A DNA stretch of 64,000 nt from an uncultured Methanosarcinales archaeon (GTDB lineage: Archaea; Nanobdellota; Nanobdellia; Woesearchaeales; GW2011-AR9): assembly GCA_964552945.1 (NCBI GenBank), contig CAZKIP010000004.1, positions 25,794 through 89,793 of the forward strand. The letters run 5' to 3'. The notes beneath the pieces are model-generated. The model saw only the letters and a list, made by a program, of their open reading frames with translations, searched no databases and was not told the origin of the DNA. The position numbers and the translations under genes are program-made. Of this stretch, positions 721 through 27,983 are shown piece by piece (the first letter of the stretch is position 1; each line of letters opens with the position of its first letter).

Positions 721-741
721 GAGTGATTGTTTTTCTTTATT

Positions 742-6060: not shown

Positions 6061-6484
6061 ATCCTTCTTTCTTAATGTCTTCTATAAGATAATGCATATT
6101 AAAAGAAACTACTGCGTAATTCTTTTCAAGCAACTCTAAAAAAGTGTCTAGCTCTTTGATATTCTTACAAACCACCTCAGCTATGAAATCCCATCCATTG
6201 TTTGTTTTCTGTAAGGTATTTACATTATTGTGATGTTGCAAAAATAGAAGTAATCTATTTTTGTTTTCATTATCAACTTTCAAAAATACTTGAGCTCTGG
6301 CCCTGTAACCCATTTCATCGAAATTTAAAACAACCGTGTTTTTCTTAATTACACTATTTTGCAGCCCTTTCAGTAAATCGAAGAGGGTTGAAATTGGTAT
6401 GTGCGTTTTTTTGCTGATGGAAGTTAGTTTTGCGCGTGAATTTCTTCGCAAACATTCCAACAATAGCAAGGATTTTTCTTTCAT
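6026..6484 (-). CDS. Lrp/AsnC family transcriptional regulator
   Basis: 152 aa with an N-terminal HTH (LLLLECLRRNSRAKLTSISKKTHIPISTLFDLLKGLQ) and a C-terminal RAM-like domain. Its 3' end overlaps the giant gene convergently. Confidence 0.7.
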   Translation of the reverse strand: MKEKSLLLLECLRRNSRAKLTSISKKTHIPISTLFDLLKGLQNSVIKKNTVVLNFDEMGYRARAQVFLKVDNENKNRLLLFLQHHNNVNTLQKTNNGWDFIAEVVCKNIKELDTFLELLEKNYAVVSFNMHYLIEDIKKEGFSLLGPLSNLQ

Positions 6485-6581
6485 TTCTTTACCTTGCAGG
6501 AGTAACTATAAAAAGAAATATTTAAAAGTTCCGGCCACTTTTTTGAACAAAAAGCAACAACCTTCCTTAATTTATTACAAT

Positions 6582-7550
6582 ATGTTCAAGATAGACAAAT
6601 ATGATAGGAAAATCCTGTACGAACTAGATAAAAATGGCCGTGCTACCCTTACAGAGATAGCAAAAAAAATCAATAAGTCAAAATCCTTTGTTCTTTATCG
6701 TATTGATAAGATGAAAGAAAGCGGTTTCTACTTGCATGACATAGTTATTTACGACGTTTCTAAGTTAGGATATCAAACATATTATCTGTATCTAAGGGTG
6801 GTGGATCATACTGCTAAAAAGGAAGCCGAATTAATCAATTATCTTAAGAGTAAGCCAGAGGTTTATAGTATTCAGAGAATTATTGGAAAATATCAACTTT
6901 ATATCTCTATAATTGCTGAAGATGTCCTTTTGCTTGAAAGTATACTTCTGGAATTGGTAGAAAATTTTGAAAAGGTGGTTGTTGGATATCGGATTTTGCT
7001 TCTTTATAGTGCCAATTCCCCTTCCCATCATTACTTGTTTAAAGATTATCCCTGGATAGATAAAGATACTTCTATTTATGGAGCCGACCCTATTCCTGTA
7101 CTTCCAAAAGAAAGAGAATTTCTAAAAGTTCTTTCTGAGCACCCAAGGGGGTCTTTTAGTATGATTGCCAAAGAAATGGGAAGCAGTTTACCTAAAGTAA
7201 GAGACATGTATAAAGACTTGGTTAAAAGAAAAATTATTATTGCAATTCGTCCTTCATTGGAACCAAGGGTGATTGGTTTTTTGGATAAACATATCACCAT
7301 AAAAATGAAGTTTAAAGGATTGTTGAAATTGAAGGAGATTAAGAATTATCTAATGGGGTTGAAATCTACAAAATTTATTTCTTATACTTTTGGAAATTAT
7401 GATTTAACGGGAGCATTTGTTTTTGAAGACTTAGAAGAATTTAAGAATTTTCAAAGCGGCGTATTCAATCATTTTGGAGATTCGATAAATTTTATTGATT
7501 TCCACGATTACTTTGAAGAAATTAAATATCACCACTTTAAACGAGAGTAA
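6582..7550 (+). CDS. Tandem Lrp/AsnC-type HTH regulator with two AsnC-like modules
   Basis: The tracked ORF starts at 6336, but its first 82 codons overlap the opposite-strand Lrp gene. The in-frame ATG at 6582 gives MFKIDKYDRKILYELDKNGRATLTEIAKKINKSKSFVLYRIDKMKESG, a classic AsnC HTH. A second HTH-like segment is EREFLKVLSEHPRGSFSMIAKEMGSSLPKVRDMYKDLVKRKII. Confidence 0.6.
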   Translation: MFKIDKYDRKILYELDKNGRATLTEIAKKINKSKSFVLYRIDKMKESGFYLHDIVIYDVSKLGYQTYYLYLRVVDHTAKKEAELINYLKSKPEVYSIQRIIGKYQLYISIIAEDVLLLESILLELVENFEKVVVGYRILLLYSANSPSHHYLFKDYPWIDKDTSIYGADPIPVLPKEREFLKVLSEHPRGSFSMIAKEMGSSLPKVRDMYKDLVKRKIIIAIRPSLEPRVIGFLDKHITIKMKFKGLLKLKEIKNYLMGLKSTKFISYTFGNYDLTGAFVFEDLEEFKNFQSGVFNHFGDSINFIDFHDYFEEIKYHHFKRE

Positions 7551-7559
7551 ATTTATAAG
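7550..7559 (+). promoter_or_regulatory. Candidate TATA box
   Basis: aatttataag lies ~25-30 nt upstream of ATG 7583. Confidence 0.35.
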
Positions 7560-7582
7560 GTAGTATTGTTTTATTCCTTACA

Positions 7583-9937
7583 ATGAAAAAAAGAGGACAA
7601 ATTACCATCTTCATAATTTTAGGTGCAACGATTTTTCTAGTTTCCATTTTTTTACTATCTTTCACAAAAGAAGTTACCGAATCTTCTTTAAGTGATGAAC
7701 AAGATAGGTTTTATACTGAACTTTTACAAAGGGAAGGGTTGAGACTATTTGTAGAAGATTGCTTAGAGGATCCTTTGGATGAAGCATTGGAACTTATTGG
7801 TAAGCAAGGGAGATTATGGGCAGACCAACCAGGAGGGATTGTGGCTTTCTCGAAAGATTTAGGAGTAAGAGTTGCTGGAGAAGAAGATGTTAAAGGAGCC
7901 AGGGTTTTTTTTGGAATAAGAAATGAATTAAGGTCTTCCGATAATGTATATCCTTGTAATTCTGTTGATGCTCCTCCAGATTTATGTACCTATTCTTTTC
8001 CAAACACAACAATTGGTTTTGGAGATAGAGAAAGAATTCTTAATGTAATAGAGGGAGATTTAGAAAGATATTTACAAGAAGAAACTAAAAGGTGTGTTAA
8101 ACAGTTTGTTAATGAAGAAATCTCTAACGATGCAGTTATCAGTGAAACTGAGTTTACGATGGATGTAGAATTGAAAGCAGAAGCACTCCATGTTGATGTG
8201 GAATATCCACTACGTTTTGTTGTTAGAGGGAAGGAATTTTTTACAAATTCAAAATTTAATATGGTTGTAAAAACTAGATTTAAGAGATTTTTAGATTCCG
8301 TAGTTTCCCTTGCTTTAAGATGGGATGAGAAATATGCTGATTTCGAATTTACTTCTGATACTTTGAAGAAAAATTCTTTTTCTTATCAAAGTGAGAAAGA
8401 CATTTCTAATTGTGAAGGAATAGGTCCTTATACTTGTGAGTTATCTCTAACAGCGATGCAAACTTTTGATGTGGAAATGGAGAGACAGAGTGTCGATGGG
8501 CACGACCTTTTTATTTTCAAAGGGCCTGATTTTTTTTATAGGGTTGCTAGACAGAACAGGCCACCTGCTTTAGATTATGTTAATCGGAAAGCTTGTCCAG
8601 TTAGTTATGATTATTTGGTAATTAAGGAAGACCCCACTTTGAAAGATGTGGATATAACTCTTAACGCAGTTGATCCGGATGAGGAGAGTAAAGAGGTAAA
8701 ATATTTCTTTGAAGGATTGCCTACCGGATGGGACCAGTTTGTTAAAGGAAATAAGATGGTAATTCCTCCTCCTGAATTAACTTTGGAGAAATATGAATTT
8801 AAGGTAAGGGTAGAAGACGAACATGGTTTATCGGATTGGCAGAATGTTAGAATTGCCGTGGATAAACCTCTTGATTCCGAGATCTCTTTCAACCTTCCTT
8901 ACAAAGTTCTTGATAATAATGTCTTGGTTGATTACAAAGTTTATTCACAGAATTTAGGCACTTATATGGTTAGTAAAGAAGACCCTCTATTTTTGGAATT
9001 TAGATATCCTTCAGTTAATTTACAAGGACAGGAAGTAAATGCTAGAATAACAAAGAATGGAAACGAAATCCCAATTGTTACTGCGTTATCTAAGGGAAGT
9101 AATTTGTTTTGCATCCCTTCTGGAACGAGTTGTTTGATAGACGATTATAAGGATATTAATGATTTTGGAAAAATAGATTATAAAGATGGCGATAAGCTAA
9201 AGTTGGATGTTGATGTTAATTTCTGTGGAGGGTATAAAGATGAGAAGCAGCAGGAATTAGAAGTTAGAATGGTTGAGTGTATACCTCATCGAAATGAAGA
9301 GTATCCTTTTGCAGCTCCTTATAATGATTGGAAAAATGAAAAGGGAAAGATTGTTAGGGTTCAGACTCCAATAAATCCTTTCTTGGCTACTCATAGTTGT
9401 TGTGCTGACGATTTTAAAATTAAGAATAGTGGAGATTGTTTTGTAAATCCGGAGAAGACTTGCGGTGGAAATGTTGGCAAAATTGATTATATTTTGGAAG
9501 AGCAATATGCAACTTGTGATAAAGGAAGGGGAAATCTTTGTGGGGATCCAAAGTATCGCGAAGTTAAAGATGCCAATGGAAAAATTATTTGTCCAGACCC
9601 CGCAATACATACAACTTGTAGTAAGGTGGCTTCTGAATGTTCTGGTAGGGAGCAGTATTCTTTAGAACAGAAGAAGGATGGCTTTTGGTGTAATGGTCCC
9701 GCGGGTTGTGGTTTGGATAAGAAGGCTTGTGAGAGTGAGATTGTTTATACTGTTGATACCCCTAGTAATATTTTTCAGAATAATGTCGCTGTTGGAAAGG
9801 ATTTTAATAAGTATCAATGTGGATGTGATTCCACCAGTGCTAAAGATAAAAAAGTTTGTTATGATTTTGTTTCTGGAAAGCCAGGGGTTTGTGAAGACAT
9901 TGGTACCACCAGCTCAGTTTACAAATGTGTCACTTAA
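7583..9937 (+). CDS. Large secreted protein (784 aa) with a class III (pilin-like) signal and a Cys-rich C-terminal region
   Basis: N-terminus MKKRGQITIFIILGATIFLVSIFLLSF has the KRG-Q + hydrophobic-helix pattern of archaeal prepilins. The C-terminal third is Cys-rich (CCADDFKIKNSGDCF...). Confidence 0.6.
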   Translation: MKKRGQITIFIILGATIFLVSIFLLSFTKEVTESSLSDEQDRFYTELLQREGLRLFVEDCLEDPLDEALELIGKQGRLWADQPGGIVAFSKDLGVRVAGEEDVKGARVFFGIRNELRSSDNVYPCNSVDAPPDLCTYSFPNTTIGFGDRERILNVIEGDLERYLQEETKRCVKQFVNEEISNDAVISETEFTMDVELKAEALHVDVEYPLRFVVRGKEFFTNSKFNMVVKTRFKRFLDSVVSLALRWDEKYADFEFTSDTLKKNSFSYQSEKDISNCEGIGPYTCELSLTAMQTFDVEMERQSVDGHDLFIFKGPDFFYRVARQNRPPALDYVNRKACPVSYDYLVIKEDPTLKDVDITLNAVDPDEESKEVKYFFEGLPTGWDQFVKGNKMVIPPPELTLEKYEFKVRVEDEHGLSDWQNVRIAVDKPLDSEISFNLPYKVLDNNVLVDYKVYSQNLGTYMVSKEDPLFLEFRYPSVNLQGQEVNARITKNGNEIPIVTALSKGSNLFCIPSGTSCLIDDYKDINDFGKIDYKDGDKLKLDVDVNFCGGYKDEKQQELEVRMVECIPHRNEEYPFAAPYNDWKNEKGKIVRVQTPINPFLATHSCCADDFKIKNSGDCFVNPEKTCGGNVGKIDYILEEQYATCDKGRGNLCGDPKYREVKDANGKIICPDPAIHTTCSKVASECSGREQYSLEQKKDGFWCNGPAGCGLDKKACESEIVYTVDTPSNIFQNNVAVGKDFNKYQCGCDSTSAKDKKVCYDFVSGKPGVCEDIGTTSSVYKCVT

Positions 9938-11319: not shown

Positions 11320-11997
11320 ATGAAAAAAATAATGGTGTTAGTGTTCTTCCTATTAGCAACCTCAGTAGTAGCACAAGTTTGCTTCTTAGAAAATGAAAGT
11401 TCTTATTATTGTCAAGAAATGGACAAAACTAAAGCCCAATCGATTTGTGAAGACGAATGCCAAATAAAAGAAACTCATTGCTCAACACTTCCAGAATGTC
11501 AACCTGTCTTTTGTCAAGATAATTGTAAAATCACTTTCAAAGGAGTCTGTGCAAAAGAAGTTCCTGCGGGAGAAGAAGCCAATTGTGTTGCACCAATAAA
11601 ACAAGAAGTTAAAGAAGTAAAAGAAGATTCATCAAACTCAGGACTATATTTCGTCATTTTTTTACTAGCGTTAATGGGGGGCATTTTCTGGTTTTTCAAA
11701 AAGCATCATGGAAATAGGACTGCTCAACAACCTCAAGGAGATAGCTGGGCTTCAACAATTATTCCAGAGTCAGAAGAAAGGCTTAATTGGTTAAAAAAAC
11801 AATTTGGAAAAAAGATGAAAAAGAAAAAAAGAGGACAAATTCTTTTCGAATTGGGGATTCCTTTGGACAACAAAACCCATGTTTCAAAATTAAGTAGGAT
11901 GATTAGGGCTCACGAGAATAAAAAGGATAAGAAAAAAGGAAAAACTTTTCATAATTTGGAAAAAATGGCTAGAGACAAATATTTTGGCAAAAAATAG
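11320..11997 (+). CDS. Membrane-anchored Cys-rich protein, paralogous to the N-terminal module of the 2140-aa giant
   Basis: Sec-type signal MKKIMVLVFFLLATSVVAQ. The Cys module CFLENESSYYCQEMDK...ECQ...PECQPVFCQDNCK aligns with CFLYKKASKGVYC...ECKDDC...PECKQVFCDLDC of the next gene. One TM (LYFVIFLLALMGGIFWFF) and a basic cytoplasmic tail. Confidence 0.55.
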   Translation: MKKIMVLVFFLLATSVVAQVCFLENESSYYCQEMDKTKAQSICEDECQIKETHCSTLPECQPVFCQDNCKITFKGVCAKEVPAGEEANCVAPIKQEVKEVKEDSSNSGLYFVIFLLALMGGIFWFFKKHHGNRTAQQPQGDSWASTIIPESEERLNWLKKQFGKKMKKKKRGQILFELGIPLDNKTHVSKLSRMIRAHENKKDKKKGKTFHNLEKMARDKYFGKK

Positions 11998-12015
11998 TAC
12001 TTTCTCTTCGTCGGA

Positions 12016-12027
12016 ATATTTATAAAC
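12016..12027 (+). promoter_or_regulatory. Candidate TATA box
   Basis: atatttataaac lies ~28 nt upstream of ATG 12054. Confidence 0.35.
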
Positions 12028-12053
12028 GTTAAAGGTTTCTTTTAAGGCTGTAG

Positions 12054-15000
12054 ATGAATAAACAAAAAAGAGGGATGTTTATAGTAGTTTTTAGTATATT
12101 TTTATTAGTTCTAGCTATATCAGTTTCTGCGGAAGAAAGTGGATGTTTTCTTTACAAAAAGGCCAGCAAAGGAGTGTATTGTACTTCCGGTATTTTGAAA
12201 TCTGTGGCTGTGAAGGAATGTAAAGATGATTGTGATATTACTAAAGATTTCCAAGAAGGAAAATTATGTAACCTCTTTCCAGAATGTAAACAAGTTTTCT
12301 GTGATTTAGATTGTCTTGAGAAACCCTTGGGTCTTTGTCAAGAAGAAGGAGGTAAAGAACTTTCAGATGACCAATACCAAAGTCAATGTGAAGCGGTTTG
12401 TTGTGTAGAAAAATATCCTAATGTGGACCAACTTGTGTGTAATTATCCTATGACAGAACAGGCATGTAAGGATAAAATAAAAATAAAACCAGGGATTTAT
12501 ACCCCCTACCATATTGCGGGAGGAAGTGAGGAAGATAAAGCAGCCAAATGTCAAATTGATTATTGTAAGGAAAAATTGGCTGAGGGTTCTCTCGAAGGAG
12601 TAATCAAGGATGTAGATGGGCCAGTTTCAGCAACAATTTCTTTAATTGGGAAAGATAAAACAGATTCTTTAGCAGATGGAAAATATTCCTTTCCAAAACT
12701 TGATCCAGGAACATATCCTGTTGAGGTTAGCAAGGAAGGTTATCAAACTGCTCAAGCAACAATTTCTATAGGGATTGGGGAAAAAAAGTCTTACGATTTT
12801 ACTTTAAATAAATTAATTATTGGTGCCATAGTTTCTGGAGTGGTTAAAGATGCTCAAGGACAACTTGTTGATGGTGCTACAGTTCTTTGGAAAGGGACTT
12901 CAATTACAGGGTCAACAACCACTTCTGCAGGAGGTAAGTTTTCTGCAAATTTACCAGAAGGGAAGTTTACTTTTACGGCTAATAAAGTTGGTTTTGAACA
13001 AGGTAGCAAGGAACTTGCGGTAATAAAAGGCACAAATAAAATAGAATTGATTTTAACGGGAACTCCAAAAACAATTTTGTCAGGAACGGCATTTTTAGAT
13101 AAGAATTCTGATAACAATTTGGATGCAAATGAAAAAACACCGGCGGTACAAATTTTTATTGATGGGAAACTTAGAGCAAGTTCACAATATGAACCTTTGG
13201 CAACTTATAGCATCGTTATGGATTTACAGAAAGATGAAGAACAACATTCCATTTCAGCAACTTATCTGAATGGTGAGTATGTTTTTGGACCAAAATCTTT
13301 TAAAATTACTAAAGCAGGTTTACAATATGATGTTCTTCTAAAAAAACTTGTAGGAGTATGTACGGCCGATGGTACCGATCCACAAAAAAAGGTTGATACT
13401 CTTAATTTAAATCATCTCCCTGGAGAGATAGGAGTTAAGCTTTCTTGGATAAAACCTTGTCCAGAAGTTGAAGGGTATGAAGTTGAAAGGAAAGGAGCAG
13501 AGGGGAAAACTAAAAAATTCATCTTTAATGGAGCAGAGAACTCTTATGTTGATAAGGAAGGATTAGAGTGGTTAGAAACTTATGAATATAAAATAAGGGC
13601 AGTTTACAAAGATGGAGGAATAAAATATTCAGATTATTCTCCTTCAAAATCAATCAAATTGGGTCAAAAGGAATGTGAAGGAAGGTACCTAAAAGATTGG
13701 GAAACTTTTTGTGAACCACATGCTCCTTACCAAGCAAATCAAATTTATACTTGTAGTAACAACAACGTTATTATTCCTGCTAAAAACTGTCCTCCGGGAT
13801 TGTTATGTGCACCATCAAACGATCCAAGAAAAGCAACTTGTATGGGCACAGATGCCTGTTTTGCTGACTTAGGACTTTTTGGACTACAAAGTACTGCCAA
13901 TCAATGTTATGGGATTAAAGATAAAGGAGATTCTCCTAAAAACTTCTGTTACTATGACCAAACTCATACGATTGTAGACTCTTGTAAAGTATGTTTAGAA
14001 TTGGAAAGTTGTTTTGATTACAAGAGTAAGGGGGCGTGTGAAATAAACAATTGTTTAACAAAACCTTGTGAATGGGTAGATGCAGCTTCAAACAAAGAAG
14101 TTCTTGACTATAGTCAAATTTTCAAAGGCTATGATAAAGATTCTTTGCTAACTACTAAGGAAACGGGCGCAGGGTATTGTATCGAAGAAAAATACGATAA
14201 CGATGATAAATGTTCTTTATGTAGTTCTTCAGCATCTCTTTTGGAAAATTTTTATTGTACTGCTGAAGTATGTACTGGTTTAGGAAGATGTTTCTCTAAT
14301 CCTCCTTATTTGGGAAAAGGGGCTTTATCTTCATGTAATGAATGTGGAGAAAGTCCTGCGAAAAATACAAATTGTTATACTTATGGAAGTAAATTGGAAT
14401 GTGAAGGAGAATCTCCTGTAAACATGGATATTAAGGGAAAGATTATTCCTTCTGCTGACAATTGTAATTGGGGAACTTGCAGATGGATAGGTAACAATAA
14501 AGATGGAAAGTGTGTTAAGGATGCGGATGTTGACAAACAAGTTACCGATGATTGTCAAGGTTTTAAAGGAGCAGACAAGGATTTATGTAAGAGCGACAAC
14601 ACTCCTCCAAAAACTTCCATTGTGGGAGATTTTACTTTTACGGTTTCTTCTGTGAACACCAATGTAACTTTAGAAGGAGATGAAAGTATTAACAAAAAGG
14701 GATGGCAAGGAAATCATTTGGGAGTGGCAGGAATTTGTTTAACCAGTGCTAGTTCTGACAAATGTTTGATGGAAAATTTTGTTAAAAAGCCTTATCCTGG
14801 TTTAAAATTTAAGGAAGAAGTTACTTTAAATCTTTATGAACAGTTGAAAGATAAAAAAATAGATGGAGAAATTTATCTCTTAAAATATTTCTCACAAGAC
14901 AGGTATTTCAACCAAGAAAATGTTCAAGAAGCGCAGATTTATGTTGATAACGTCCCTCCAGAATTTACAATTAAATCCACAAAAAAGACCCTTGGTGATA

Positions 15001-18000
15001 CGACTGATTTAAGTGTGTTTTTAGAAGATCTTAGCGAAGCAATGTCTTGTGACTTTGAACTAACTCCTCTACTGCCTTTGGGAACTAAAGTGAATAAAGC
15101 TGTTTCCATTACTGAACAAAAAATGGTTTCATTCCCTGGGTTAAAAGTGGTTAGGGCGGATGTAAAGGTTACTTGTAAAGATTCTTTGGGTAATGAAAAT
15201 AGTAAAAATAAAACATTTGTTTTTGATTTAGAAAAGAGAATAGAAATCTTATCACCAGAACTTGAGAGCATTCTTAGTAAAACCACTTTAACATTTGAAG
15301 TTAAGACCACTATAGATGCAACTTGTTCTTTATTCAATCAAGCTAAGAATCAGAAAGTTGCTGATTTCAAAGCTTCTTCAGATTTAAAAATTCACAAAAC
15401 AGATGCAATCCCTGGTTTCATTGAAGGTGATTATTCCGCTTCTCACAAAGTAATTTGCACAGACGTTGTTACTCAAGGAACTATGGAAGATTTCTTTAAT
15501 TTTAGGGTTGATTTCACTCCACCAAACACAGAAATTATTTTGAAAGAGGGTAAAAGGGTTGAGAAACCAGTGAAGTATGGATGGGAAGAATTTTTTGTTA
15601 AAGATGTGGAAGTAACCCTCTCTTGTAAGGCAGATGGCTTTTCTTGTGAAAAAAGATTTTATTGTTTAGGAAAAGGATGTGGACTAAAGTCCACGGGGAA
15701 ATTCGTAGAGTATACCGCTCCCTTTAAAGTAGATAAAACAACGAGTATCTGCTATTTCTCAAAAGATAAATCGGGGAATGAAGTTGTTCAGCCCTTCTGT
15801 GGAAAAATTATTGTTGAAGGTTATGGTTTAATTTTGGAAAGTCCTCCAATTAAAATGTTCGAAGATGAAATATGGGGAATAAGTAACAAACCACAATTTG
15901 AATTAAGGTTTACAACAAAAGTTTCTTCAAAAATATGTAAGTTAGGGTTGAGTGAAGGGTTTGATTACGATAAAGTTGATTTAGATAGAGTTTTGGAAGG
16001 GAAGGGAGGAAAATATATTTTTCCCAATTTCCCTAGCGGTTCCCTTGGTGCTTACCCCGAAAAAGGAGGAGTAAAAACCTTATATGTTGTTTGCGAAGCA
16101 GGTGATGGAGGGCTTAGTCCTGAACATGTCGTTCATATAGAGTATGACCCCTCTGCGCCAGAAATAATTGATCAAGGAGCTGAACCAAATAAAATTTTGA
16201 AAGAAAAAACAACTCGTTTATTTGCAACTACTGATGATAAAACCTTTTGCAGATATAGTGATAATTCTGCTGGAGATGGAAGTAGCGATTATTTAACAAT
16301 GGAATATTCGTTTCCAGGACAAGATAAAAATACTTTGTTCAAGAAACATGAGCAACATTACTCTATTTCATTTGTAGGTCTGAAGAAAGATTATTTGTTT
16401 AATGTTCAATGTAAAAATGGGGCAGACGATTTTTCAAAAGTTGAAGAGATTAAATTCGAAGTTGATTACACGGAAGAAAGTAAAAATGATGAAAAAAATG
16501 ATGATGGGACAGATAAAGTTACTGAAGGTTTTATCCTTAAAGCATCTCCTCAAGGAGGATATCTTCAAGGAACTTCCGCAAACTTATTTGTAGAAACCAG
16601 TAAAAATGCAATTTGTAGATATAAGCTAGGTAGCGAATACCAAAACTTTAATGTTACCGGAGAAAAAATTCATACTTCCACTTTGTTAAGCTTACCAGAT
16701 AAGGATTATCTAATCCCAGTAAGTTGCATAATGGGAAAGAAGACCGCTACAGCTTTACTTTCTTTTACCATAGACACAACTGCTCCAAGTGTGATCTCAG
16801 TAGAGGATGGGAATTATACTTGTGGAAGTAAGGAATGGTCAGTGATGGTGGAAACAAGCGATAACAATATTTCTGGTTATTATTACGAAATTTATGATAA
16901 TGGATTAATTCCTAGCGTTGCTTACAAAAAGATTTATGGTGAACAAAAATCAACTCAACTTGGAAGCGGGTATACGGGATACTATTCAATTTATGAAACT
17001 TTTTCAGAAAAGAATTATTCAAAGTTTTTAACAAATAAAAGTAAAGAAATTCAGAAGGGGGTCGTTTACAACAAATCTGTTGGTCCAACTTTGCCCTTAT
17101 CTATTCCAGTTTCAGAATTTAAAGAAGACCACATTTATTATACTAAAGTTTGGACATGGGATGCGGTCAAAAACCAAGGAAATCCTAAAGAGAGTGATGG
17201 TATTGCGGTTGTGCAAGAAAACTCTTCATTTTGTGTAACCACGAAAGAAAATAATGTGGCTCCAAAAGTAGATTATGTGGTTAATGATTCAAGTTGTTTG
17301 AAAACGGTAGTTAAATTGAAATGTTCTAGTCCAACTGGATGTAAGAGTATTGAGTATGGCATTTCTACTGCTTCATCAGAATGTCAAGCAAATAAATCTT
17401 ACAATGGAAAAAATTTGCTTATTAAAGGAAAGAAATGGGTTTGTTACACTGCTTCTGATTATACGGGAATTAATGTGAGTGGCAAAAAGTTGTTTACTTA
17501 TGTTGATCAGGATGGAGACAGTGTTAGAGACAAAAAAACTTGTGATCTTTGTTTAAAGACACCTGCTGGAAAAATAGTTGGTAACGATGGTTGTTCATTA
17601 GAACAGTTGACAGATGAAGAAGCTGGAAAAGACGAAGATAAAGATGGTTTGCCAGATTCTTGGGAAAAATTAAGATCTCGAGAAGGGTGCTTGTTAAGTC
17701 CGTTCAGTAAAGATTCAGATGGTGACGGAGTAGATGATGCAACTCAAGATTATGATGATGATGGAAGGAGTAATCTGCAAGAATACTACGCTGGTACAGA
17801 TCCTTGTGTAAAAGACGATGACTTTTTCAGTGATGATCTTTACAAATTTGATGAAGAAGAAGATGAAAAGAAAGTTGATGACAAAAAGAAGGACGATAAG
17901 AAAAAACCAACTACGGGAGTTTCAACTACAAAAGAAAAGGAAGAAGAATCTATCCTAGCTTTAATATTGATGTTAATAGGTCTTCTACTTATCCTTGGTG

Positions 18001-18476
18001 GAACTGGTTATTTAGTTTATTATTACTTATATTCTCCGCAGTCTAAAAAAGGAGAAACAGGGTTTGTAAGAACGGAACCAACAAAACAAGCGGTACAAAA
18101 ACCAGCAACTTTCAAAGAGAAATTCTTCGCTTGGAAGAAAAAAGACACTATTGAGAAATCTAAAGAGAAAAAGAGAAAATCGTTGTTTGGACAATTTTCA
18201 AAGTCTTCTTCAAGCATTCCTCCATTAGAAAAAGCTTTGAAGGGGAAAGGTTCTGACTTATCTCGTTTAGGTAACTTAGCACAACATTATTCCGAACATA
18301 AGGAGGAAATTAGGCCTGGGTTAAGGAAAGAAGAGAAAAATGTTTTTTCTAAATTGGACAAGATAGCTGGAAAAACAAAGGATAAAAAAATCCATGAAGT
18401 TGTTAGTAAGGATGAAGCAAAAGATATTTTTGGAAAGTTGAAAGATATCAGCAAAAAGAGAAAGAAAAGAAAATGA
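12054..18476 (+). CDS. Giant cell-surface protein (2140 aa) with a class III-like N-terminus, CarboxypepD_reg-like and FN3-like repeats, Ca-binding DxDxDG motifs, and a C-terminal TM plus Lys-rich tail
   Basis: N-terminus MNKQKRGMFIVVFSIFLLVLAISVSA. Two GVIKDVDGP...GKYSF...GTYPVEV-type repeats, and FN3-like LSWIKPCPEVEGYEVERK...YEYKIRAVY. DSDGDGVDDATQDYDDDG near the C-terminus. TM ILALILMLIGLLLILGGTGYLVYYYLY is followed by a ~170-aa K-rich tail. Confidence 0.65.
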   Translation: MNKQKRGMFIVVFSIFLLVLAISVSAEESGCFLYKKASKGVYCTSGILKSVAVKECKDDCDITKDFQEGKLCNLFPECKQVFCDLDCLEKPLGLCQEEGGKELSDDQYQSQCEAVCCVEKYPNVDQLVCNYPMTEQACKDKIKIKPGIYTPYHIAGGSEEDKAAKCQIDYCKEKLAEGSLEGVIKDVDGPVSATISLIGKDKTDSLADGKYSFPKLDPGTYPVEVSKEGYQTAQATISIGIGEKKSYDFTLNKLIIGAIVSGVVKDAQGQLVDGATVLWKGTSITGSTTTSAGGKFSANLPEGKFTFTANKVGFEQGSKELAVIKGTNKIELILTGTPKTILSGTAFLDKNSDNNLDANEKTPAVQIFIDGKLRASSQYEPLATYSIVMDLQKDEEQHSISATYLNGEYVFGPKSFKITKAGLQYDVLLKKLVGVCTADGTDPQKKVDTLNLNHLPGEIGVKLSWIKPCPEVEGYEVERKGAEGKTKKFIFNGAENSYVDKEGLEWLETYEYKIRAVYKDGGIKYSDYSPSKSIKLGQKECEGRYLKDWETFCEPHAPYQANQIYTCSNNNVIIPAKNCPPGLLCAPSNDPRKATCMGTDACFADLGLFGLQSTANQCYGIKDKGDSPKNFCYYDQTHTIVDSCKVCLELESCFDYKSKGACEINNCLTKPCEWVDAASNKEVLDYSQIFKGYDKDSLLTTKETGAGYCIEEKYDNDDKCSLCSSSASLLENFYCTAEVCTGLGRCFSNPPYLGKGALSSCNECGESPAKNTNCYTYGSKLECEGESPVNMDIKGKIIPSADNCNWGTCRWIGNNKDGKCVKDADVDKQVTDDCQGFKGADKDLCKSDNTPPKTSIVGDFTFTVSSVNTNVTLEGDESINKKGWQGNHLGVAGICLTSASSDKCLMENFVKKPYPGLKFKEEVTLNLYEQLKDKKIDGEIYLLKYFSQDRYFNQENVQEAQIYVDNVPPEFTIKSTKKTLGDTTDLSVFLEDLSEAMSCDFELTPLLPLGTKVNKAVSITEQKMVSFPGLKVVRADVKVTCKDSLGNENSKNKTFVFDLEKRIEILSPELESILSKTTLTFEVKTTIDATCSLFNQAKNQKVADFKASSDLKIHKTDAIPGFIEGDYSASHKVICTDVVTQGTMEDFFNFRVDFTPPNTEIILKEGKRVEKPVKYGWEEFFVKDVEVTLSCKADGFSCEKRFYCLGKGCGLKSTGKFVEYTAPFKVDKTTSICYFSKDKSGNEVVQPFCGKIIVEGYGLILESPPIKMFEDEIWGISNKPQFELRFTTKVSSKICKLGLSEGFDYDKVDLDRVLEGKGGKYIFPNFPSGSLGAYPEKGGVKTLYVVCEAGDGGLSPEHVVHIEYDPSAPEIIDQGAEPNKILKEKTTRLFATTDDKTFCRYSDNSAGDGSSDYLTMEYSFPGQDKNTLFKKHEQHYSISFVGLKKDYLFNVQCKNGADDFSKVEEIKFEVDYTEESKNDEKNDDGTDKVTEGFILKASPQGGYLQGTSANLFVETSKNAICRYKLGSEYQNFNVTGEKIHTSTLLSLPDKDYLIPVSCIMGKKTATALLSFTIDTTAPSVISVEDGNYTCGSKEWSVMVETSDNNISGYYYEIYDNGLIPSVAYKKIYGEQKSTQLGSGYTGYYSIYETFSEKNYSKFLTNKSKEIQKGVVYNKSVGPTLPLSIPVSEFKEDHIYYTKVWTWDAVKNQGNPKESDGIAVVQENSSFCVTTKENNVAPKVDYVVNDSSCLKTVVKLKCSSPTGCKSIEYGISTASSECQANKSYNGKNLLIKGKKWVCYTASDYTGINVSGKKLFTYVDQDGDSVRDKKTCDLCLKTPAGKIVGNDGCSLEQLTDEEAGKDEDKDGLPDSWEKLRSREGCLLSPFSKDSDGDGVDDATQDYDDDGRSNLQEYYAGTDPCVKDDDFFSDDLYKFDEEEDEKKVDDKKKDDKKKPTTGVSTTKEKEEESILALILMLIGLLLILGGTGYLVYYYLYSPQSKKGETGFVRTEPTKQAVQKPATFKEKFFAWKKKDTIEKSKEKKRKSLFGQFSKSSSSIPPLEKALKGKGSDLSRLGNLAQHYSEHKEEIRPGLRKEEKNVFSKLDKIAGKTKDKKIHEVVSKDEAKDIFGKLKDISKKRKKRK

Positions 18477-19021
18477 TGTTTGGAAAAAAAGGGATGGGTA
18501 TTGCACAGGCTTTTATTTTTATAGTTGTAGCTTTGACTTTCGCATTAATTATGATTTTTGGGTTTAAAGCAGTACAAGATTTTTTGGATAAAGGAGAAAA
18601 GGTAGTCTTTTTACAATTTAAAAATGATTTGGAAACTTCAGTGAAACAAATCTACACCAACTATGGGGCCGTAAGAATTAAAGATTTCCGAGCACCTGGC
18701 CAATATGAAAAGATTTGTTTTGTTAACATGGACATTAAACCCACTGAAGAGGATTTAGATGAACTCTTTCAGGAAGATTTCTATGCTAGTGAAGTATGGA
18801 GAGAAGCTTGGAGTAGAGACGATGTTACGGGAATTAAGGCTGTGGAAGAAAATGTTTTCCTTTCACCTAAAGTAGATACTATTCAAATGAAGATTCACAA
18901 AATCAAAATTTATGGAGAAAAGAATGAAGGATTTCTTTGTACAAAAATTGAAAAAGGATCTTTTCGTCTAGTCCTTGAAGGTAAAGGGGATAGTACGGAA
19001 TTATCCCTTCCCGAGCCTTGA
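18473..19021 (+). CDS. Pilin-like protein (class III signal)
   Basis: MMFGKKGMGIAQAFIFIVVALTFALIMIFG. Overlaps the upstream giant gene as ATGA. Confidence 0.5.
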   Translation: MMFGKKGMGIAQAFIFIVVALTFALIMIFGFKAVQDFLDKGEKVVFLQFKNDLETSVKQIYTNYGAVRIKDFRAPGQYEKICFVNMDIKPTEEDLDELFQEDFYASEVWREAWSRDDVTGIKAVEENVFLSPKVDTIQMKIHKIKIYGEKNEGFLCTKIEKGSFRLVLEGKGDSTELSLPEP

Positions 19022-19023
19022 TA

Positions 19024-20082
19024 ATGTTTAAAAAAGCCCAGATGCAGATTGGATTTAATTGGATTTTTGTTTTGATAGCTGGGGCGGTAATTTTACTTTT
19101 TTTTGTAGGTATTGTGGTTAAACAGCAACAAGTTTCTGAAGAAAATTTAGCAAGAGATATTGTAGGAACGATGGATTCAATATTTACTGCAGCTAGAGTT
19201 TCGGATAAAACTAAGAATGTAATTCCACTAAGAGGGTTAGAGAAAGAAATTTTATTGTTTAGTTGTGAGGATAGTGTTACCGAATTCTCGTTAAAAGACC
19301 AACCATTTAGGGAGCAGAATAATATTGACCCCCTTTTTTCGCCAAATGAAATAAAATCTTCAGAATTATTTTTAATAAGTTTGCCTTACAATTTACCCTA
19401 TAAAACTCTTGATTTTTTAATGCTAACTTCTCCAAGTGTGAAATATGTTTTGATTGGTAAAAAGGACTTGCCTTTTGTAGAAGAATTTCTTAATCAAACG
19501 GAAGGATTTAATGTAAAATATTTGCCAGAAGCCAAGTATGCTAAGTTGGACATAACTAGGGAGCTTCAGTTAAAAATTATTGATTTAGAAGGAGGCTTGA
19601 TTGTGGAAGGAGCCAAAGTTCCAGGAATTTTCGATGTGCTTGCAGATAAAAATGTTCGAGCAGTTTCTTTTTCAGGAAACCAGATTACTTATTATCAGAG
19701 GGAAGGAGATAGTTGGGCTTCTATGCATCAAGAACCTTTGCCTTTAATCTCTGTGGGAGGAGAGAGAGATGCCGCCAAATATGCCGCTATATTTGCTCAT
19801 GATGATTTGAATTATTGGTGTAACATGCAGAAGGCTTTCAACAGAATTTCTTTTGTTGATGAAATTTATCGTCAAAAAATAAAAGAGATGCTTCTGTATT
19901 ATGATAAAACAAAAAGTTCTTCCTGTGCTTCTGATACAAAATCTCTTTCTAAATCCTTAGAGGTTCATCAGGGACAAGCAGATATTTGTGAAAGGGATTC
20001 CTGTTCCGGATTTGTTGAAGAATCTAAGAAAATAAGAGAAACTAACCAGTTTTTGAAAGAATGTGAGATTCAATTATATTAA
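19024..20082 (+). CDS. Pilin-like protein (class III signal), 352 aa
   Basis: The tracked ORF starts at TTG 19018. The ATG at 19024 gives MFKKAQMQIGFNWIFVLIAGAVILLFFVG. Confidence 0.55.
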   Translation: MFKKAQMQIGFNWIFVLIAGAVILLFFVGIVVKQQQVSEENLARDIVGTMDSIFTAARVSDKTKNVIPLRGLEKEILLFSCEDSVTEFSLKDQPFREQNNIDPLFSPNEIKSSELFLISLPYNLPYKTLDFLMLTSPSVKYVLIGKKDLPFVEEFLNQTEGFNVKYLPEAKYAKLDITRELQLKIIDLEGGLIVEGAKVPGIFDVLADKNVRAVSFSGNQITYYQREGDSWASMHQEPLPLISVGGERDAAKYAAIFAHDDLNYWCNMQKAFNRISFVDEIYRQKIKEMLLYYDKTKSSSCASDTKSLSKSLEVHQGQADICERDSCSGFVEESKKIRETNQFLKECEIQLY

Positions 20083-20088
20083 ATAAAA

Positions 20089-20583
20089 ATGAAATTAAGC
20101 AAGAAAGCTCAAATAAGGATGACTGAAACAGTCTCGGTCTTATTCATTTTTTTTATTTTGGTAGCTTTTGGGATGCTTTTTTATGGGAAATATCAGGAAG
20201 GTGCAGTACTTGAGAAGGAAGAAGAGTTATTTGTTAAAAAAGCTCAAGATATTACCACTAAGCTGATTTATCTTCCCGAAATTGCTTGCACTAGAGGAGA
20301 TTCAGAGGCGGAAGCATTTTGTTTTGATTTGATGAAGTTAAGATCTGCCGGACAGGTGTTAGAAGATGATTACTATTTTGACATATTTTCATTTGCAAGA
20401 ATTACAATTAACCAAACTTATCCTAAAAAAGAGGAAGACATAATTATTTATGAAAGGCTTCCCAATGAAATTAAGAAAATCACCCCTTCAAGGTTTATAG
20501 TAGCTTTGAAAGATCAAAGTGAAGGAATTAATGGTGTTTCTTCATACCATTTTGGATTTGTTAAGGTGGAGGTTTTTTCATGA
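20089..20583 (+). CDS. Pilin-like protein (class III signal)
   Basis: MKLSKKAQIRMTETVSVLFIFFILVAFGMLFYG. Confidence 0.55.
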   Translation: MKLSKKAQIRMTETVSVLFIFFILVAFGMLFYGKYQEGAVLEKEEELFVKKAQDITTKLIYLPEIACTRGDSEAEAFCFDLMKLRSAGQVLEDDYYFDIFSFARITINQTYPKKEEDIIIYERLPNEIKKITPSRFIVALKDQSEGINGVSSYHFGFVKVEVFS

Positions 20584-21107
20584 ATCTCTTCTTTAAAAAA
20601 GGCCAGATGGAGATGGTTGGTTTGGTAGTTATCGTTATTCTTATTACGTTAGGGTTACTTTTTATGACCATTTTTGCTTTACAAAACGATGATAAGAAGG
20701 TTTTTACTCAGAAAGGGATAGCTGCTAGTACGATGGCTGCTTTAATGAAAACCACCATTTATGATTGTAATCAACCTAAACTTTCGTTAGAAAAAAAACT
20801 TCTTGATGATTGTGCAAAAAATCACGGGTTGCCAGAAGATTTATTTGAGTTTCATTGCGATGCTAAAAATAGTTGTGATTATTTAGAAGGGAAAATAACC
20901 GCTTTACTGAACGAAAGTTTGGGAAGGTGGGGTTTTCGTTACCAATATGAATCTACAGTTGTCCAAGGAGACGCGATTATTGGACCAATCGTTTCTTCCA
21001 GAGGAGGATGCGCTGCTAAAAAGATAGGGAGGGAAACCTCTAATCCATTCTTTCTTTCAGATGGGAAGGGAAGGTTGGTTAGAAGCGAATTATTCATCTG
21101 TGGATAG
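20580..21107 (+). CDS. Pilin-like protein (class III signal)
   Basis: MNLFFKKGQMEMVGLVVIVILITLGLLFM. ATGA overlap with the upstream gene. Confidence 0.6.
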   Translation: MNLFFKKGQMEMVGLVVIVILITLGLLFMTIFALQNDDKKVFTQKGIAASTMAALMKTTIYDCNQPKLSLEKKLLDDCAKNHGLPEDLFEFHCDAKNSCDYLEGKITALLNESLGRWGFRYQYESTVVQGDAIIGPIVSSRGGCAAKKIGRETSNPFFLSDGKGRLVRSELFICG

Positions 21108-21186
21108 TTGAAGATTTAGCAAAATTTATATAGGTTTATCTCTTTTTAAAAGGTAAATCGATATTTAAAAAACGAGGTGTAAAATT

Positions 21187-21537
21187 ATGTTTTCGAAAAA
21201 AGGTCAAGGTCTTTCATTAAATGTGATAATTATCGCGGCTTTAGCTCTGATAGTTCTGGTTGTTTTAGCAGCAGTTTTTATTGGTAGAATCACACCGGTA
21301 GGAGAAGATGTTGAAAGAGTAGGCAACACTGAATTGGTTAAAATGAAGCTTAAATATGGGACTTGCCATCCTAACGACGCAGAAGCGAACTCTTTTGTAA
21401 GTTCTTTTGGTCTAGCAGGATCTCCTGAAGATGGAGAGAAAGTTAAAGTTGAATTTAGTAATAAAATAAGTGATTGTAAAGAATTCAATGATGATCAGAA
21501 AAGTTGTGAAGCTTCTGGTGGATGTAGCTGGAAATAA
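21187..21537 (+). CDS. Pilin-like protein (class III signal), 116 aa; possible major subunit
   Basis: MFSKKGQGLSLNVIIIAALALIVLVVLAAVFIG. Has its own upstream AT-rich promoter-like region and a GAGGTG SD. Confidence 0.6.
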   Translation: MFSKKGQGLSLNVIIIAALALIVLVVLAAVFIGRITPVGEDVERVGNTELVKMKLKYGTCHPNDAEANSFVSSFGLAGSPEDGEKVKVEFSNKISDCKEFNDDQKSCEASGGCSWK

Positions 21538-21539
21538 AG

Positions 21540-21851
21540 ATGAATAAATCTTTTTTTTCTTTCCTTTTTGGGAAGAAAGCCTTAGCGAACATTTGGTGGA
21601 TTATTATTGGTGCAGTTCTGGCTTTAGTGGTTTTGATAGTTATATTACTTATTTTTACAGGAAAAACGACTCCCTTAGAACAAGGGTTACTTGATTGTGA
21701 AAGCAAAGGTGGACAATGTTTAAAGAAAGACGATTGTCTTAGCAAAAAGTACGATGGAACTGTCTCTTCAGCATTCGAATGCAGCGAGGGGAATGTTTGT
21801 TGTTTCACTCTTTTCAAAGAGACAGATAAAAAAGATTCGGATAATAAATGA
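21540..21851 (+). CDS. Pilin-like protein with a Cys-containing C-terminus
   Basis: MNKSFFSFLFGKKALANIWWIIIGAVLALVVLIVILLIF. C-terminus CESKGGQCLKKDDCLSKK...CSEGNVCCF. Confidence 0.5.
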   Translation: MNKSFFSFLFGKKALANIWWIIIGAVLALVVLIVILLIFTGKTTPLEQGLLDCESKGGQCLKKDDCLSKKYDGTVSSAFECSEGNVCCFTLFKETDKKDSDNK

Positions 21852-21870
21852 AAATATCAATAATAAAAAG

Positions 21871-21996
21871 ATGGTTTTTTCCAAGAAAGCACAGCTGATT
21901 ACCAAGGAAGCACTTTTGATTACTTTAGCGATTATTCTTTTTTTGTTGGTTTTTTATTTAGTGGTTGTTGAACCATTTATTTCAATAGGGATTTAA
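21871..21996 (+). CDS. Mini pilin-like protein (41 aa: signal plus helix only)
   Basis: MVFSKKAQLITKEALLITLAIILFLLVFYLVVV. In-frame ATG inside tracked ORF 21754..21996. Confidence 0.4.
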   Translation: MVFSKKAQLITKEALLITLAIILFLLVFYLVVVEPFISIGI

Positions 21997-22031
21997 AGAT
22001 GATAAATAGATGTTTATGTAATAAAAAGGGA

Positions 22032-22157
22032 ATGGCAAGATGGTTCTTAGCTTTTCTAATCCTTGCTTTAGTATTTTTAATTATGATGACGGTTTGGTTT
22101 GTTGCTTTGAAGGGGAATTTGGATTTTTTTTTTGATAAAATATTGGATTGGTTTTAA
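22032..22157 (+). CDS. Possible small single-TM protein (41 aa)
   Basis: MARWFLAFLILALVFLIMMTVWFVALKGNLDFFFDKILDWF. Not in the ORF track because it is under 60 aa. Fills the gap within the operon. Confidence 0.25.
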   Translation: MARWFLAFLILALVFLIMMTVWFVALKGNLDFFFDKILDWF

Positions 22158-24394: not shown

Positions 24395-24406
24395 AAGGTG
24401 ATAAAG

Positions 24407-27952: not shown

Positions 27953-27983
27953 ATTTTTATTGCCATTGTAAAGGGTGGTTTTA

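What the first reader, a model, noticed from the sequence alone, without database searches (positions are those of the whole stretch)
11320..12300. Small membrane protein shares a Cys-rich N-terminal module with the adjacent 2140-aa giant
Protein 11320..11997 (CFLENESSYYCQEMDK..EDECQIKETHC..LPECQPVFCQDNCK) aligns motif-for-motif with the N-terminal module of the giant (CFLYKKASKGVYC..KECKDDCDITKDF..FPECKQVFCDLDCLEK). The module has been duplicated onto a short single-TM protein with a basic cytoplasmic tail. The small protein could be a membrane receptor, an anchor, a chaperone or a decoy for the same ligand.
Basis: seen in the sequence. Interest (0 to 1): 0.55.

Follow-up and report, generated by a model that had tools for sequence, protein, structure and literature searches.

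The report
Mini and giant surface-protein paralogue pair
A 225-residue membrane protein and the 2140-residue surface protein next to it are an ancient paralogue pair found side by side in Woesearchaeota-type (DPANN) archaea, sharing an undescribed cysteine-rich outer domain, a membrane anchor and a cytoplasmic tail, so the small one is a stalk-less version of the giant.

Summary
With signal peptides removed, the two N-terminal modules align with every cysteine matched (score 92; shuffles 35.8±6.6; 0 of 2000 reach it).

An exhaustive profile search found 72 proteins, all carrying the module at the N-terminus. They fall into two classes:
- Giants of 2006–2142 aa.
- Small proteins, mostly 290–440 aa.

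The full module has about 140 residues and 16 conserved cysteines. AlphaFold2 models it confidently (pLDDT 89.8). It has no Pfam, NCBIfam or PDB match.

The window's small protein is a trimmed form that keeps Cys 1–10.

Both classes also share a C-terminal membrane helix and a homologous Lys/Arg-rich cytoplasmic tail (hhalign E 1.5e-15; shuffled controls score nothing).

Small sits directly upstream of giant in six deeply diverged lineages, and two genes away in a seventh. The duplication is ancient, not local. The pair lies in a conserved ~27-kb surface locus with about 13 prepilin-like genes.

Function is inferred only. My best reading is one disulfide-rich binding head shown at two heights and tied to one cytoplasmic partner, probably for cell attachment.

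The parts
11320..11376 (+). Small protein: Sec-type signal peptide (aa 1-19, MKKIMVLVFFLLATSVVAQ). It has no KKG/KRG prepilin-like motif.
   Evidence: Read directly from the sequence. Hydropathy and an AF2 helix at aa 2-22 agree.
11377..11592 (+). Small protein: trimmed Cys-rich head domain (aa 20-91). Its 10 Cys lie at 21, 31, 43, 47, 54, 60, 65, 69, 77 and 89, matching Cys 1-10 of the 16-Cys family module.
   Evidence: The small-class HMM built without window sequences scores it 50.5 bits, E 1.4e-17.
11635..11703 (+). Small protein: single transmembrane helix (aa ~106-128, NSGLYFVIFLLALMGGIFWFFKK).
   Evidence: Kyte-Doolittle window. AF2 helix at 107-130, pLDDT 80-86.
11704..11997 (+). Small protein: Lys/Arg-rich cytoplasmic tail (aa 129-225) ending in ..TFHNLEKMARDKYFGKK, plus the stop codon.
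   Evidence: The small-class tail HMM built without window sequences gives E 6e-13. The tail is 28% K/R.
12054..12131 (+). Giant: N-terminal signal (aa 1-26, MNKQKRGMFIVVFSIFLLVLAISVSA). It contains the K-R-G motif conserved in all giants, followed by an AxA-type site.
12141..12566 (+). Giant: complete 16-Cys head domain (aa 30-171; Cys at 31, 43, 56, 60, 72, 78, 83, 87, 95, 112, 116, 117, 129, 138, 166, 171).
   Evidence: The giant-class HMM without window sequences scores it 101 bits. The AF2 model of aa 27-181 has pLDDT 89.8 and pTM 0.72.
12567..17951 (+). Giant: ~1800-aa extracellular stalk. It contains two CarboxypepD_reg/PEGA-type beta-sandwich domains (aa ~183-330), an fn3-like domain (aa ~460-529), a Cys-dense region (aa ~540-850), further beta-rich repeats, and Asp-rich DxDxDG-type stretches (aa ~1830-1910).
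   Evidence: Pfam PF13620 at E 2.8e-23, with weak PEGA and fn3 hits. PDB FN3con at E 0.0012. The rest is read from the sequence.
17952..18029 (+). Giant: C-terminal transmembrane helix (aa 1967-1992, ILALILMLIGLLLILGGTGYLVYYYL).
18030..18476 (+). Giant: 148-aa Lys/Arg-rich cytoplasmic tail ending in ..EAKDIFGKLKDISKKRKKRK, plus the stop codon. It is homologous to the small-class tail.
   Evidence: hhalign of small-class against giant-class tails gives Prob 98.5, E 1.5e-15, with negative controls. The small-class tail HMM hits aa 2028-2136 at E 2.4e-9.
727..9937 (+). Conserved upstream partners in the locus: a 1777-aa protein (727..6060) and a 784-aa Cys-rich protein with a prepilin-like N-terminus (7583..9937). 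A lineage-specific AsnC/Lrp-type regulator gene (6336..7550) lies between them.
   Evidence: Orthologues occupy the same positions in L004, L005, L007, L009 and L014. BLASTP gives 28-34% identity. Pfam identifies the regulator.
18473..27919 (+). Downstream run of about 13 ORFs with class-III (prepilin-like) N-termini, of the form M..KKG/KRG/KKA followed by a hydrophobic stretch. It ends before an RPA-like gene at 27975.
   Evidence: N-termini read from the sequence. ORFs of the same sizes follow the giant in every related locus. Pfam identifies the RPA-like gene.

Best explanation
Shown:
- The 225-aa and 2140-aa genes are an ancient, syntenic paralogue pair of type-I membrane proteins of Woesearchaeota/Nanoarchaeia (DPANN) archaea.
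- Both have a signal peptide, an undescribed Cys-rich N-terminal 'head' domain, one C-terminal membrane helix, and a homologous Lys/Arg-rich cytoplasmic tail of about 100-155 aa that ends in a [ILVF]-F-x-x-L-x-x-[ILMV]-x-K-K-type motif.
- The full head has 16 Cys in ~140 aa. The window's small protein keeps only Cys 1-10.
- The giant carries ~1800 aa of beta-sandwich, fn3-like, Cys-dense and Asp-rich repeats between head and anchor. The small protein has only a short linker. It is a stalk-less mini-version of the giant.

Inferred:
- The head is a disulfide-bonded extracellular binding domain. Cys counts are always even (10, 16, 74-80), and the domain follows a secretion signal.
- The giant holds the head at the tip of a long stalk. 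The small protein holds it at the membrane surface.
- The shared tail ties both proteins to the same cytoplasmic partner or membrane site.
- The pair probably works within the conserved ~27-kb surface locus (two more large secreted proteins and ~13 prepilin-like proteins). The most likely role is cell-cell or cell-surface attachment by these presumed symbionts. The small protein would act as a membrane-proximal co-receptor or partner of the giant.
For: Homology of the heads:
- (SW 92 vs 35.8 ± 6.6; 0 of 2000 shuffles).
- (72 hits, all N-terminal, in two length classes).
- (all 16 Cys columns shared by both classes).

Homology of the tails:
- (hhalign score 90, E 1.5e-15; reversed alignment scores 20; 20 column shuffles score at most 12.4).
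- (small-class tail HMM hits only the two window proteins).

Ancient paralogy:
-. The window small scores 50.5 bits to the small-class HMM and 22.6 to the giant-class HMM. The window giant scores 101 and 53.8. In a neighbour-joining tree the giants form one clade.

Synteny:
- Small lies directly upstream of giant in the window/L001/L002, L005, L007/8, L009-11, L012/13 and L014. It lies two genes away in L004.
- Orthologues between these lineages are only ~24-35% identical.

Fold and topology:
- AF2 pLDDT 89.8 for the head.
- Membrane helices and basic tails.
- Even Cys counts.
- Stalk domains.
- Prepilin-like neighbours.

Taxonomy.
Against: - No experimental or expression data exist for any member.
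- The binding role of the head and the docking role of the tail are inferences from architecture.
- Disulfide bonding was not verified. Metal binding by some cysteines is not excluded.
- Direct pairwise similarity of the two window tails is not significant (p ~0.01-0.1). Their homology rests on family profiles.
- In one locus (L006) no small gene lies in the 2.2 kb available upstream of the giant.
- No pilus ATPase, platform protein or prepilin peptidase gene was found in the window.
Confidence: 0.6

Rival explanations
1. Homotypic docking. The two heads bind each other. The membrane-proximal head of the small protein would capture the distal head of the giant, either on the same cell (stowing or looping the long stalk, or helping its folding and export) or between sister cells. 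The small protein would then be a receptor or chaperone for the giant rather than a co-receptor for an external ligand.
For: - The same domain is kept in both proteins, in strict gene adjacency, over deep divergence.
- Only these two proteins in the window carry the head or the tail.
- Two unrelated lineages kept Cys 1-10 and lost the Cys 11-16 half (window small and P0060). This suggests the first half is the part that matters for the small protein.
Against: No co-folding or interface prediction could be run. Nothing in the sequences points specifically to self-association.
Confidence: 0.2
2. Regulator or decoy. The small protein competes with the giant for the shared cytoplasmic partner (through the tail) or for the external ligand (through the head), and so tunes the giant's activity instead of cooperating with it.
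For: Shared tail and shared head. Each gene has its own AT-rich TATA-like upstream element, so separate expression is possible.
Against: A pure decoy would not be expected to be kept next to the giant in every lineage examined. There is no evidence of differential regulation.
Confidence: 0.1
3. The cysteines of the head coordinate metal ions or Fe-S clusters instead of forming disulfides. The head would then be a redox or metal-binding module (for example for extracellular electron or metal handling), not an adhesion domain.
For: - CxxxC and CxxxxC spacings are present.
- The habitat is probably anoxic.
- Homologues of the neighbouring 784-aa gene carry Pfam Cu-binding_MopE motif hits.
Against: - The domain lies behind a secretion signal.
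- Cys counts are strictly even in all classes, and the trimmed variants keep an even number.
- No His or Asp co-ligand pattern is conserved.
- There is no similarity to any metal-binding family in Pfam or the PDB.
Confidence: 0.08
4. The small ORF is a decaying remnant of a recent local duplication of the giant's 5' end, or the similarity is chance among Cys-rich sequences.
For: The window's small protein is shorter than its family (225 aa vs ~290-440 aa) and lacks Cys 11-16.
Against: - Shuffle statistics.
- 72 family members.
- The window small groups with the small class, not with its own giant.
- The ORF is intact, with signal peptide, an even Cys count, a membrane helix and a family-type tail.
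- An identical gene occurs in two independent assemblies.
- A similarly trimmed variant, P0060, is found on 11 contigs next to a giant.
Confidence: 0.02

Closest known systems
Giant repeat-stalk adhesins of bacteria (for example RTX/Bap-type adhesins such as LapA, SiiE, MpIBP). This comparison is from general knowledge and was not tested here.
   Same: Very long extracellular proteins built from tandem Ig-like/beta-sandwich repeats with Asp-rich Ca-binding-like stretches. A distinct domain sits at the end far from the cell anchor. The presumed role is attachment.
   Different: - No sequence relationship beyond generic CarboxypepD_reg/fn3 folds.
- The window protein is anchored by a C-terminal membrane helix with a long cytoplasmic tail, not by an outer-membrane T1SS plug.
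- It has ~78 cysteines.
- It has a co-conserved stalk-less paralogue, which those systems lack.
Two-component archaeal S-layers (SlaA/SlaB of Sulfolobales; see the title and abstract of PMC6911244)
   Same: Two adjacent genes encode a large outer surface protein and a smaller membrane-anchored partner.
   Different: - SlaA and SlaB are not paralogues, and only SlaB is membrane-anchored. Here both proteins are anchored and share head and tail.
- The only S-layer model hit (NCBIfam NF052345) scores 40 bits against a cut-off of 1400 and covers just the beta-sandwich domains.
Archaeal type IV pilin-like proteins (class III signal peptides) and the DPANN pilin islands noted by Makarova et al. 2019 (PMC6393860)
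   Same: The pair sits in a locus with ~13 ORFs that have prepilin-like N-termini. That paper reports dark-matter islands of diverse predicted pilins in DPANN genomes.
   Different: - The small protein has an ordinary Sec-type signal, and both proteins are anchored at the C-terminus, unlike pilins.
- The giant's K-R-G motif is prepilin-like but is followed by an AxA site, so its status is unresolved.
- No pilus ATPase or platform gene lies in the window.
SPEARE giant surface proteins of Nanohaloarchaeota (from memory: Hamm et al. 2019; not retrieved here)
   Same: Giant surface proteins of DPANN archaea proposed to mediate host contact.
   Different: As I recall, their domain content is different (protease, adhesion, nuclease). 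They have no 16-Cys head, no shared-tail mini-paralogue, and come from a different lineage. No sequence comparison was made.

Membership tests
Any curated Cys-rich or other domain family (Pfam-A, NCBIfam) for the head domain | A score above the family's gathering threshold | tested here: not met
   - The small protein has 0 Pfam and 0 NCBIfam families.
- 27 head domains scanned at E<=1 gave only scattered single hits, the best at E 0.012.
Any solved structure (PDB) for the head domain | Sequence-profile or fold similarity to a PDB chain | tested here: not met
   - hmmsearch with profile A3 against PDB sequences gave 0 hits at E<=1.
- Foldseek of the pLDDT-89.8 model against the PDB gave a best E of 2.0 and TM <=0.21.
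- Against BFVD the best E was 0.31.
CarboxypepD_reg (PF13620) beta-sandwich domain, in the giant's stalk | Pfam score above the gathering cut-off of 32.3 bits | tested here: met
   82.5 bits, E 2.8e-23, in two stretches. The same family is recorded for the orthologous giants.
Archaeal type IV pilin / class III signal peptide protein | A short basic N-terminus ending in [KR]-G/A, directly followed by a ~20-residue hydrophobic helix that stays in the mature protein | tested here: inconclusive
   - Small protein: motif absent (MKKIMVLVFF..VVAQ), so not met.
- Giant: K-R-G plus a hydrophobic stretch is conserved in nearly all giants, but an AxA signal-peptidase-I-type site follows.
- No dedicated predictor was available.
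Kustd1514-type S-layer glycoprotein (NCBIfam NF052345) | Whole-protein score of at least 1400 bits | tested here: not met
   40.2 bits, covering only aa 259-403.
PGF-CTERM / archaeosortase-anchored surface protein | A membrane helix at the extreme C-terminus followed by only a few basic residues | tested here: not met
   The membrane helix is followed by 97 aa in the small protein and 148 aa in the giant. No PGF motif is seen in the sequence.
The new 'mini/giant' family defined here | (a) An N-terminal head with the conserved Cys pattern. (b) A single C-terminal membrane helix. (c) A homologous basic tail with the terminal F-x-x-L-x-x-[ILMV]..KK motif. (d) Location next to the other class in the conserved locus. 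| tested here: met
   - (a). The window small meets this only for Cys 1-10.
- (b).
- (c). The strict motif is in 14 of 14 giants and 17 of 34 complete smalls. The relaxed form is in 31 of 34 smalls.
- (d).

The most novel reading that the evidence does not exclude
The pair is the membrane-spanning core of a so far undescribed attachment apparatus of Woesearchaeota-type DPANN archaea. A new disulfide-rich fold is displayed at two fixed distances from the membrane, with the short form docking or gauging the long form by head-head contact. Both are coupled through a new conserved cytoplasmic tail module to an intracellular partner, which would link surface contact with a host to the symbiont's interior. 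The co-encoded set of ~13 pilin-like proteins would build the surrounding structure.
Probability: 0.2. Interest if true: 0.7.

Novelty: new variant of a known kind. Interest (0 to 1): 0.55.

Why it matters
- How Woesearchaeota and related DPANN archaea contact hosts or surfaces is largely unknown, and nearly all their surface proteins are annotated 'hypothetical'.
- This analysis defines a conserved two-gene unit inside a conserved ~27-kb surface locus.
- It defines a new, confidently modelled 16-Cys extracellular domain with no Pfam or PDB counterpart.
- It also defines a new cytoplasmic tail module shared by the two proteins.
- These give concrete handles for metaproteomics, cryo-ET labelling and recombinant binding studies: antibody or peptide targets, profile HMMs and an AF2 model.
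- The mini/giant design gives a clear test of whether stalk length matters for function.

Tried and rejected
- Word-indexed homology searches with the small protein, the giant's first 199 aa and the head-domain profile found only self or 2 hits. The index is too coarse for this divergent family. The exhaustive HMMER search was what worked.
- The search for related loci in genome contigs returned one spurious 10-residue match in a Tannerellaceae MAG, which I discarded as chance.
- A single-sequence AF2 model of the small protein was uninformative for the head (pLDDT 31-44 there).
- Direct pairwise alignment of the two window tails was not significant, so I used profile methods instead.
- Literature searches on DPANN or Woesearchaeota with Cys-rich, giant surface proteins or pili found no description of this pair.
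- Rejected readings: chance Cys spacing, recent local duplication or pseudogene, PGF-CTERM anchoring, and S-layer family membership.
Full report
**1. What is there**

The ORF listing confirms a 225-aa ORF at 11320..11997 (+). A 2140-aa ORF follows at 12054..18476 (+) after a 56-bp gap.

The window is archaeal. It holds an archaeal RNase P RNA at 63529-63867 (-) and a RadA gene, and its G+C is ~34%. Close relatives of the two proteins are deposited as 'hypothetical protein' from Candidatus Woesearchaeota and Candidatus Nanoarchaeia MAGs, so this is a DPANN lineage.

**2. Is the similarity real?**

BLASTP gives 36% identity over 89 aa, E 3e-7. That alignment includes the signal peptides, so I removed them and re-aligned.
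- Smith-Waterman scores 92, with all nine module cysteines of the small protein matched.
- 2000 composition-preserving shuffles average 35.8 ± 6.6 (maximum 66). The same holds against the whole mature giant.
- phmmer on its own is lukewarm.
- No third copy of the module exists in the window.

**3. The family**

A profile of the two modules was searched with HMMER against 1.84 billion representative proteins. It found 72 proteins at E<=1e-3, every one with the match at residues ~20-110. They fall into two classes:
- 13 full-length giants of 2006-2142 aa, plus contig-truncated giant N-termini.
- About 45 small proteins, mostly 290-440 aa.

It has about 140 residues and 16 invariant or near-invariant cysteines, following the pattern GC[FY]...YC...A..EC...C...C...EC..[IV].C...C...G.C...WC.PGCC...C...C...C...C. 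All 16 columns are shared by both classes.

The window's giant has all 16 (Cys31-Cys171). The window's small protein stops after Cys10. A second small protein, P0060 (255 aa, Nanoarchaeia), is trimmed at the same point but is not its sister in the tree.

Cys counts are even throughout: 10 or 16 in complete small proteins (a few have 17 or 18) and 74-80 in mature giants, with 78 in 13 of 14 once signal peptides are excluded. Together with the secretion signal, this argues for disulfides. It also suggests two subdomains, Cys1-10 and Cys11-16. Both points are inference.

**4. Structure of the head**

I ran AlphaFold2 on window giant aa 27-181 with a 58-sequence alignment. Mean pLDDT is 89.8 and pTM 0.72, with a mixed alpha/beta fold.

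Nothing known matches it:
- Foldseek finds nothing in the PDB (best E 2.0) or in BFVD.
- A sequence profile finds nothing in PDB sequences.
- Pfam and NCBIfam have no model for it.

**5. The homology extends to the other end**

Both classes have one membrane helix near the C-terminus. It is followed by a Lys/Arg-rich tail of 95-190 aa in small proteins and ~155 aa in giants.

Profile-profile comparison of 40 small-class tails with 14 giant-class tails gives probability 98.5% and E 1.5e-15 over 138 columns. Reversing the giant alignment gives a score of 20, and 20 column shuffles give at most 12.4, against 90 for the real one.

The extreme C-terminus is the same in both classes:
- Giants: ..EAKDIF.KLK.ISKKRK.
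- Small proteins: ..d.fe.Lrki.kKk.
- Window small protein..TFHNLEKMARDKYFGKK.

A small-class tail HMM built without the window sequences hits the window small tail (E 6e-13) and the window giant tail (aa 2028-2136, E 2.4e-9). It hits nothing else in the window. The two window tails compared directly are not significantly similar. The tail profile has no Pfam or PDB counterpart, only weak coiled-coil-like hits.

The small protein is therefore paralogous to both ends of the giant. It lacks the ~1800-aa stalk, which holds CarboxypepD_reg beta-sandwiches, an fn3-like domain, a Cys-dense region and Asp-rich stretches.

**6. Age of the duplication**

I built class-specific head HMMs without the window sequences.
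- The window small protein scores 50.5 bits to the small class and 22.6 to the giant class.
- The window giant scores 101 and 53.8.
- In a neighbour-joining tree the giants form one clade, and the window small protein sits among the small proteins.

The duplication predates the divergence of these lineages. It is not a local event.

**7. Synteny**

| Locus (call numbers) | Arrangement |
|---|---|
| Window = L001/L002 (10, 36) | small directly upstream of giant |
| L005 (40, 43) | small directly upstream of giant |
| L007/L008 (42, 43) | small directly upstream of giant |
| L009-L011 (70, 73) | trimmed P0060 directly upstream of a 2109-aa giant |
| L012/L013 (71, 73) | small directly upstream of giant |
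| L014 (72, 73) | small directly upstream of the giant's start; also shares the window's minus-strand 434/435-aa gene just before the small gene |
| L004, Woesearchaeota GCA_018664115.1 (32, 36) | small two genes upstream of giant |
| L006 (41, 43) | only 2.2 kb upstream available; no small gene seen there |

Orthologues between these loci are only ~24-35% identical, so the adjacency has been kept over deep divergence.

The wider order is conserved too. A ~1600-1800-aa protein comes first, then a ~780-870-aa protein, the small protein and the giant. Four ORFs of ~183-210, ~354-440, ~156-172 and ~175-202 aa follow, and then more small ORFs.

In the window this locus runs from 727 to 27919 and ends at an RPA-like gene, as it does in L007. 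About 13 of the downstream ORFs, and the 784-aa protein, start with class-III (prepilin-like) signals of the form M..KKG/KRG/KKA plus a hydrophobic stretch. Makarova et al. noted islands of divergent predicted pilins in DPANN genomes (PMC6393860). No pilus ATPase, platform protein or prepilin peptidase gene lies in the window.

**8. How it most likely works**

Shown: a conserved pair of type-I membrane proteins with the same extracellular head, the same anchor and tail, and very different stalk lengths, encoded in a conserved surface locus.

Inferred:
- The head is a disulfide-stabilised binding domain.
- The giant presents it far from the cell, and the small protein presents it at the membrane.
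- The common tail couples both to one cytoplasmic partner or site.
- The locus serves attachment.

Three readings of the small protein cannot be separated with these tools:
- It co-binds an external ligand alongside the giant.
- It docks the giant's head.
- It competes with the giant.

I favour cooperation (co-receptor or partner) because the adjacency is so strictly kept.

**9. Novelty**

Members of the family are annotated only as hypothetical proteins. Neither head nor tail matches any curated family or solved structure. I found no paper describing the pair.

In kind it is a cell-surface, adhesin-like system, which is a known kind. The new elements are the head fold, the tail module and the conserved mini/giant paralogue design.

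Noticed in passing
window 18473-27919 (+): About 13 consecutive ORFs begin with prepilin-like class-III signals. Examples are MMFGKKGMGIAQAFIFIVV, MNLFFKKGQMEMVGLVVIV, MFSKKGQGLSLNVIIIAAL and MFNKKGAMVDD... None has a Pfam or NCBIfam match. ORFs of the same sizes follow the giant in every related locus.
   Followed up: partly
window 12054-12131 and all giant homologues: Nearly all giants start M-x(1-3)-[KQE]-K-R-G followed by a hydrophobic stretch and then an AxA-type site. The K-R-G is far more conserved than an ordinary Sec n-region and resembles the prepilin-peptidase motif of the neighbouring genes. The small class lacks it. Which peptidase processes the giant is open.
   Followed up: partly
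window 9938-11245 (-): A 435-aa minus-strand gene with a lipobox-like N-terminus (..LSLCVALPACGTSEP) and 14 Cys is wedged between the 784-aa gene and the small gene. A 434-aa homologue (24% identity) sits at the same place and on the same strand in L014. It is absent from the other related loci. It has no family match.
   Followed up: partly
window 6336-7550 (+) and 6026-6484 (-): An AsnC/Lrp-type HTH regulator gene lies between the 1777-aa and 784-aa genes, as it does in L001. In L005, L007 and L009 those two genes are adjacent. The regulator may be a lineage-specific regulator of the locus. The listed GTG start probably over-extends the ORF, since the gene call in L001 is 322 aa.
   Followed up: no
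giant homologues P0003-P0072; window 12054-18476: Mature giants keep almost exactly 78 cysteines (range 74-80, always even) despite only ~30-40% sequence identity. This implies a fully conserved disulfide (or metal) framework along the whole 2000-aa ectodomain.
   Followed up: partly
L009-L011 (gene at L009 10001-10768): P0060 from a Nanoarchaeia MAG is a second small protein trimmed after Cys10, like the window's. It does not group with the window's small protein in the tree. The Cys11-16 half therefore seems to have been lost twice independently.
   Followed up: partly
L004 6359-7567; L009 8309-9961: In L009-L011 a 550-aa homologue of the N-terminal part of the window's 784-aa protein carries Pfam PF11617 (Cu-binding_MopE motif) hits. 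A 402-aa cluster gene in L004 carries them too. The window protein itself gave no Pfam hit.
   Followed up: no
L005 103-884; L007 1-967: MNT (NTP_transf_2/Polbeta) and HEPN (HepT-like) gene pairs sit directly upstream of the surface locus in two related lineages. Makarova et al. 2019 list MNT-HEPN as a DPANN-typical gene found in housekeeping contexts. They are not present at that position in the window.
   Followed up: no
window 63529-63867 (-): Archaeal RNase P RNA (Rfam RF00373, 138.9 bits, full length). No tRNA genes were detected in the 64 kb.
   Followed up: no
window 31261-32730 (+) and 37984-40284 (+): There are two PEP-utilising-enzyme genes. One is a complete PEP synthase/PPDK-type protein of 766 aa. 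The other is a 489-aa protein in which only the C-terminal mobile (phosphohistidine) domain matches Pfam, and its N-terminal ~400 aa are unassigned.
   Followed up: no
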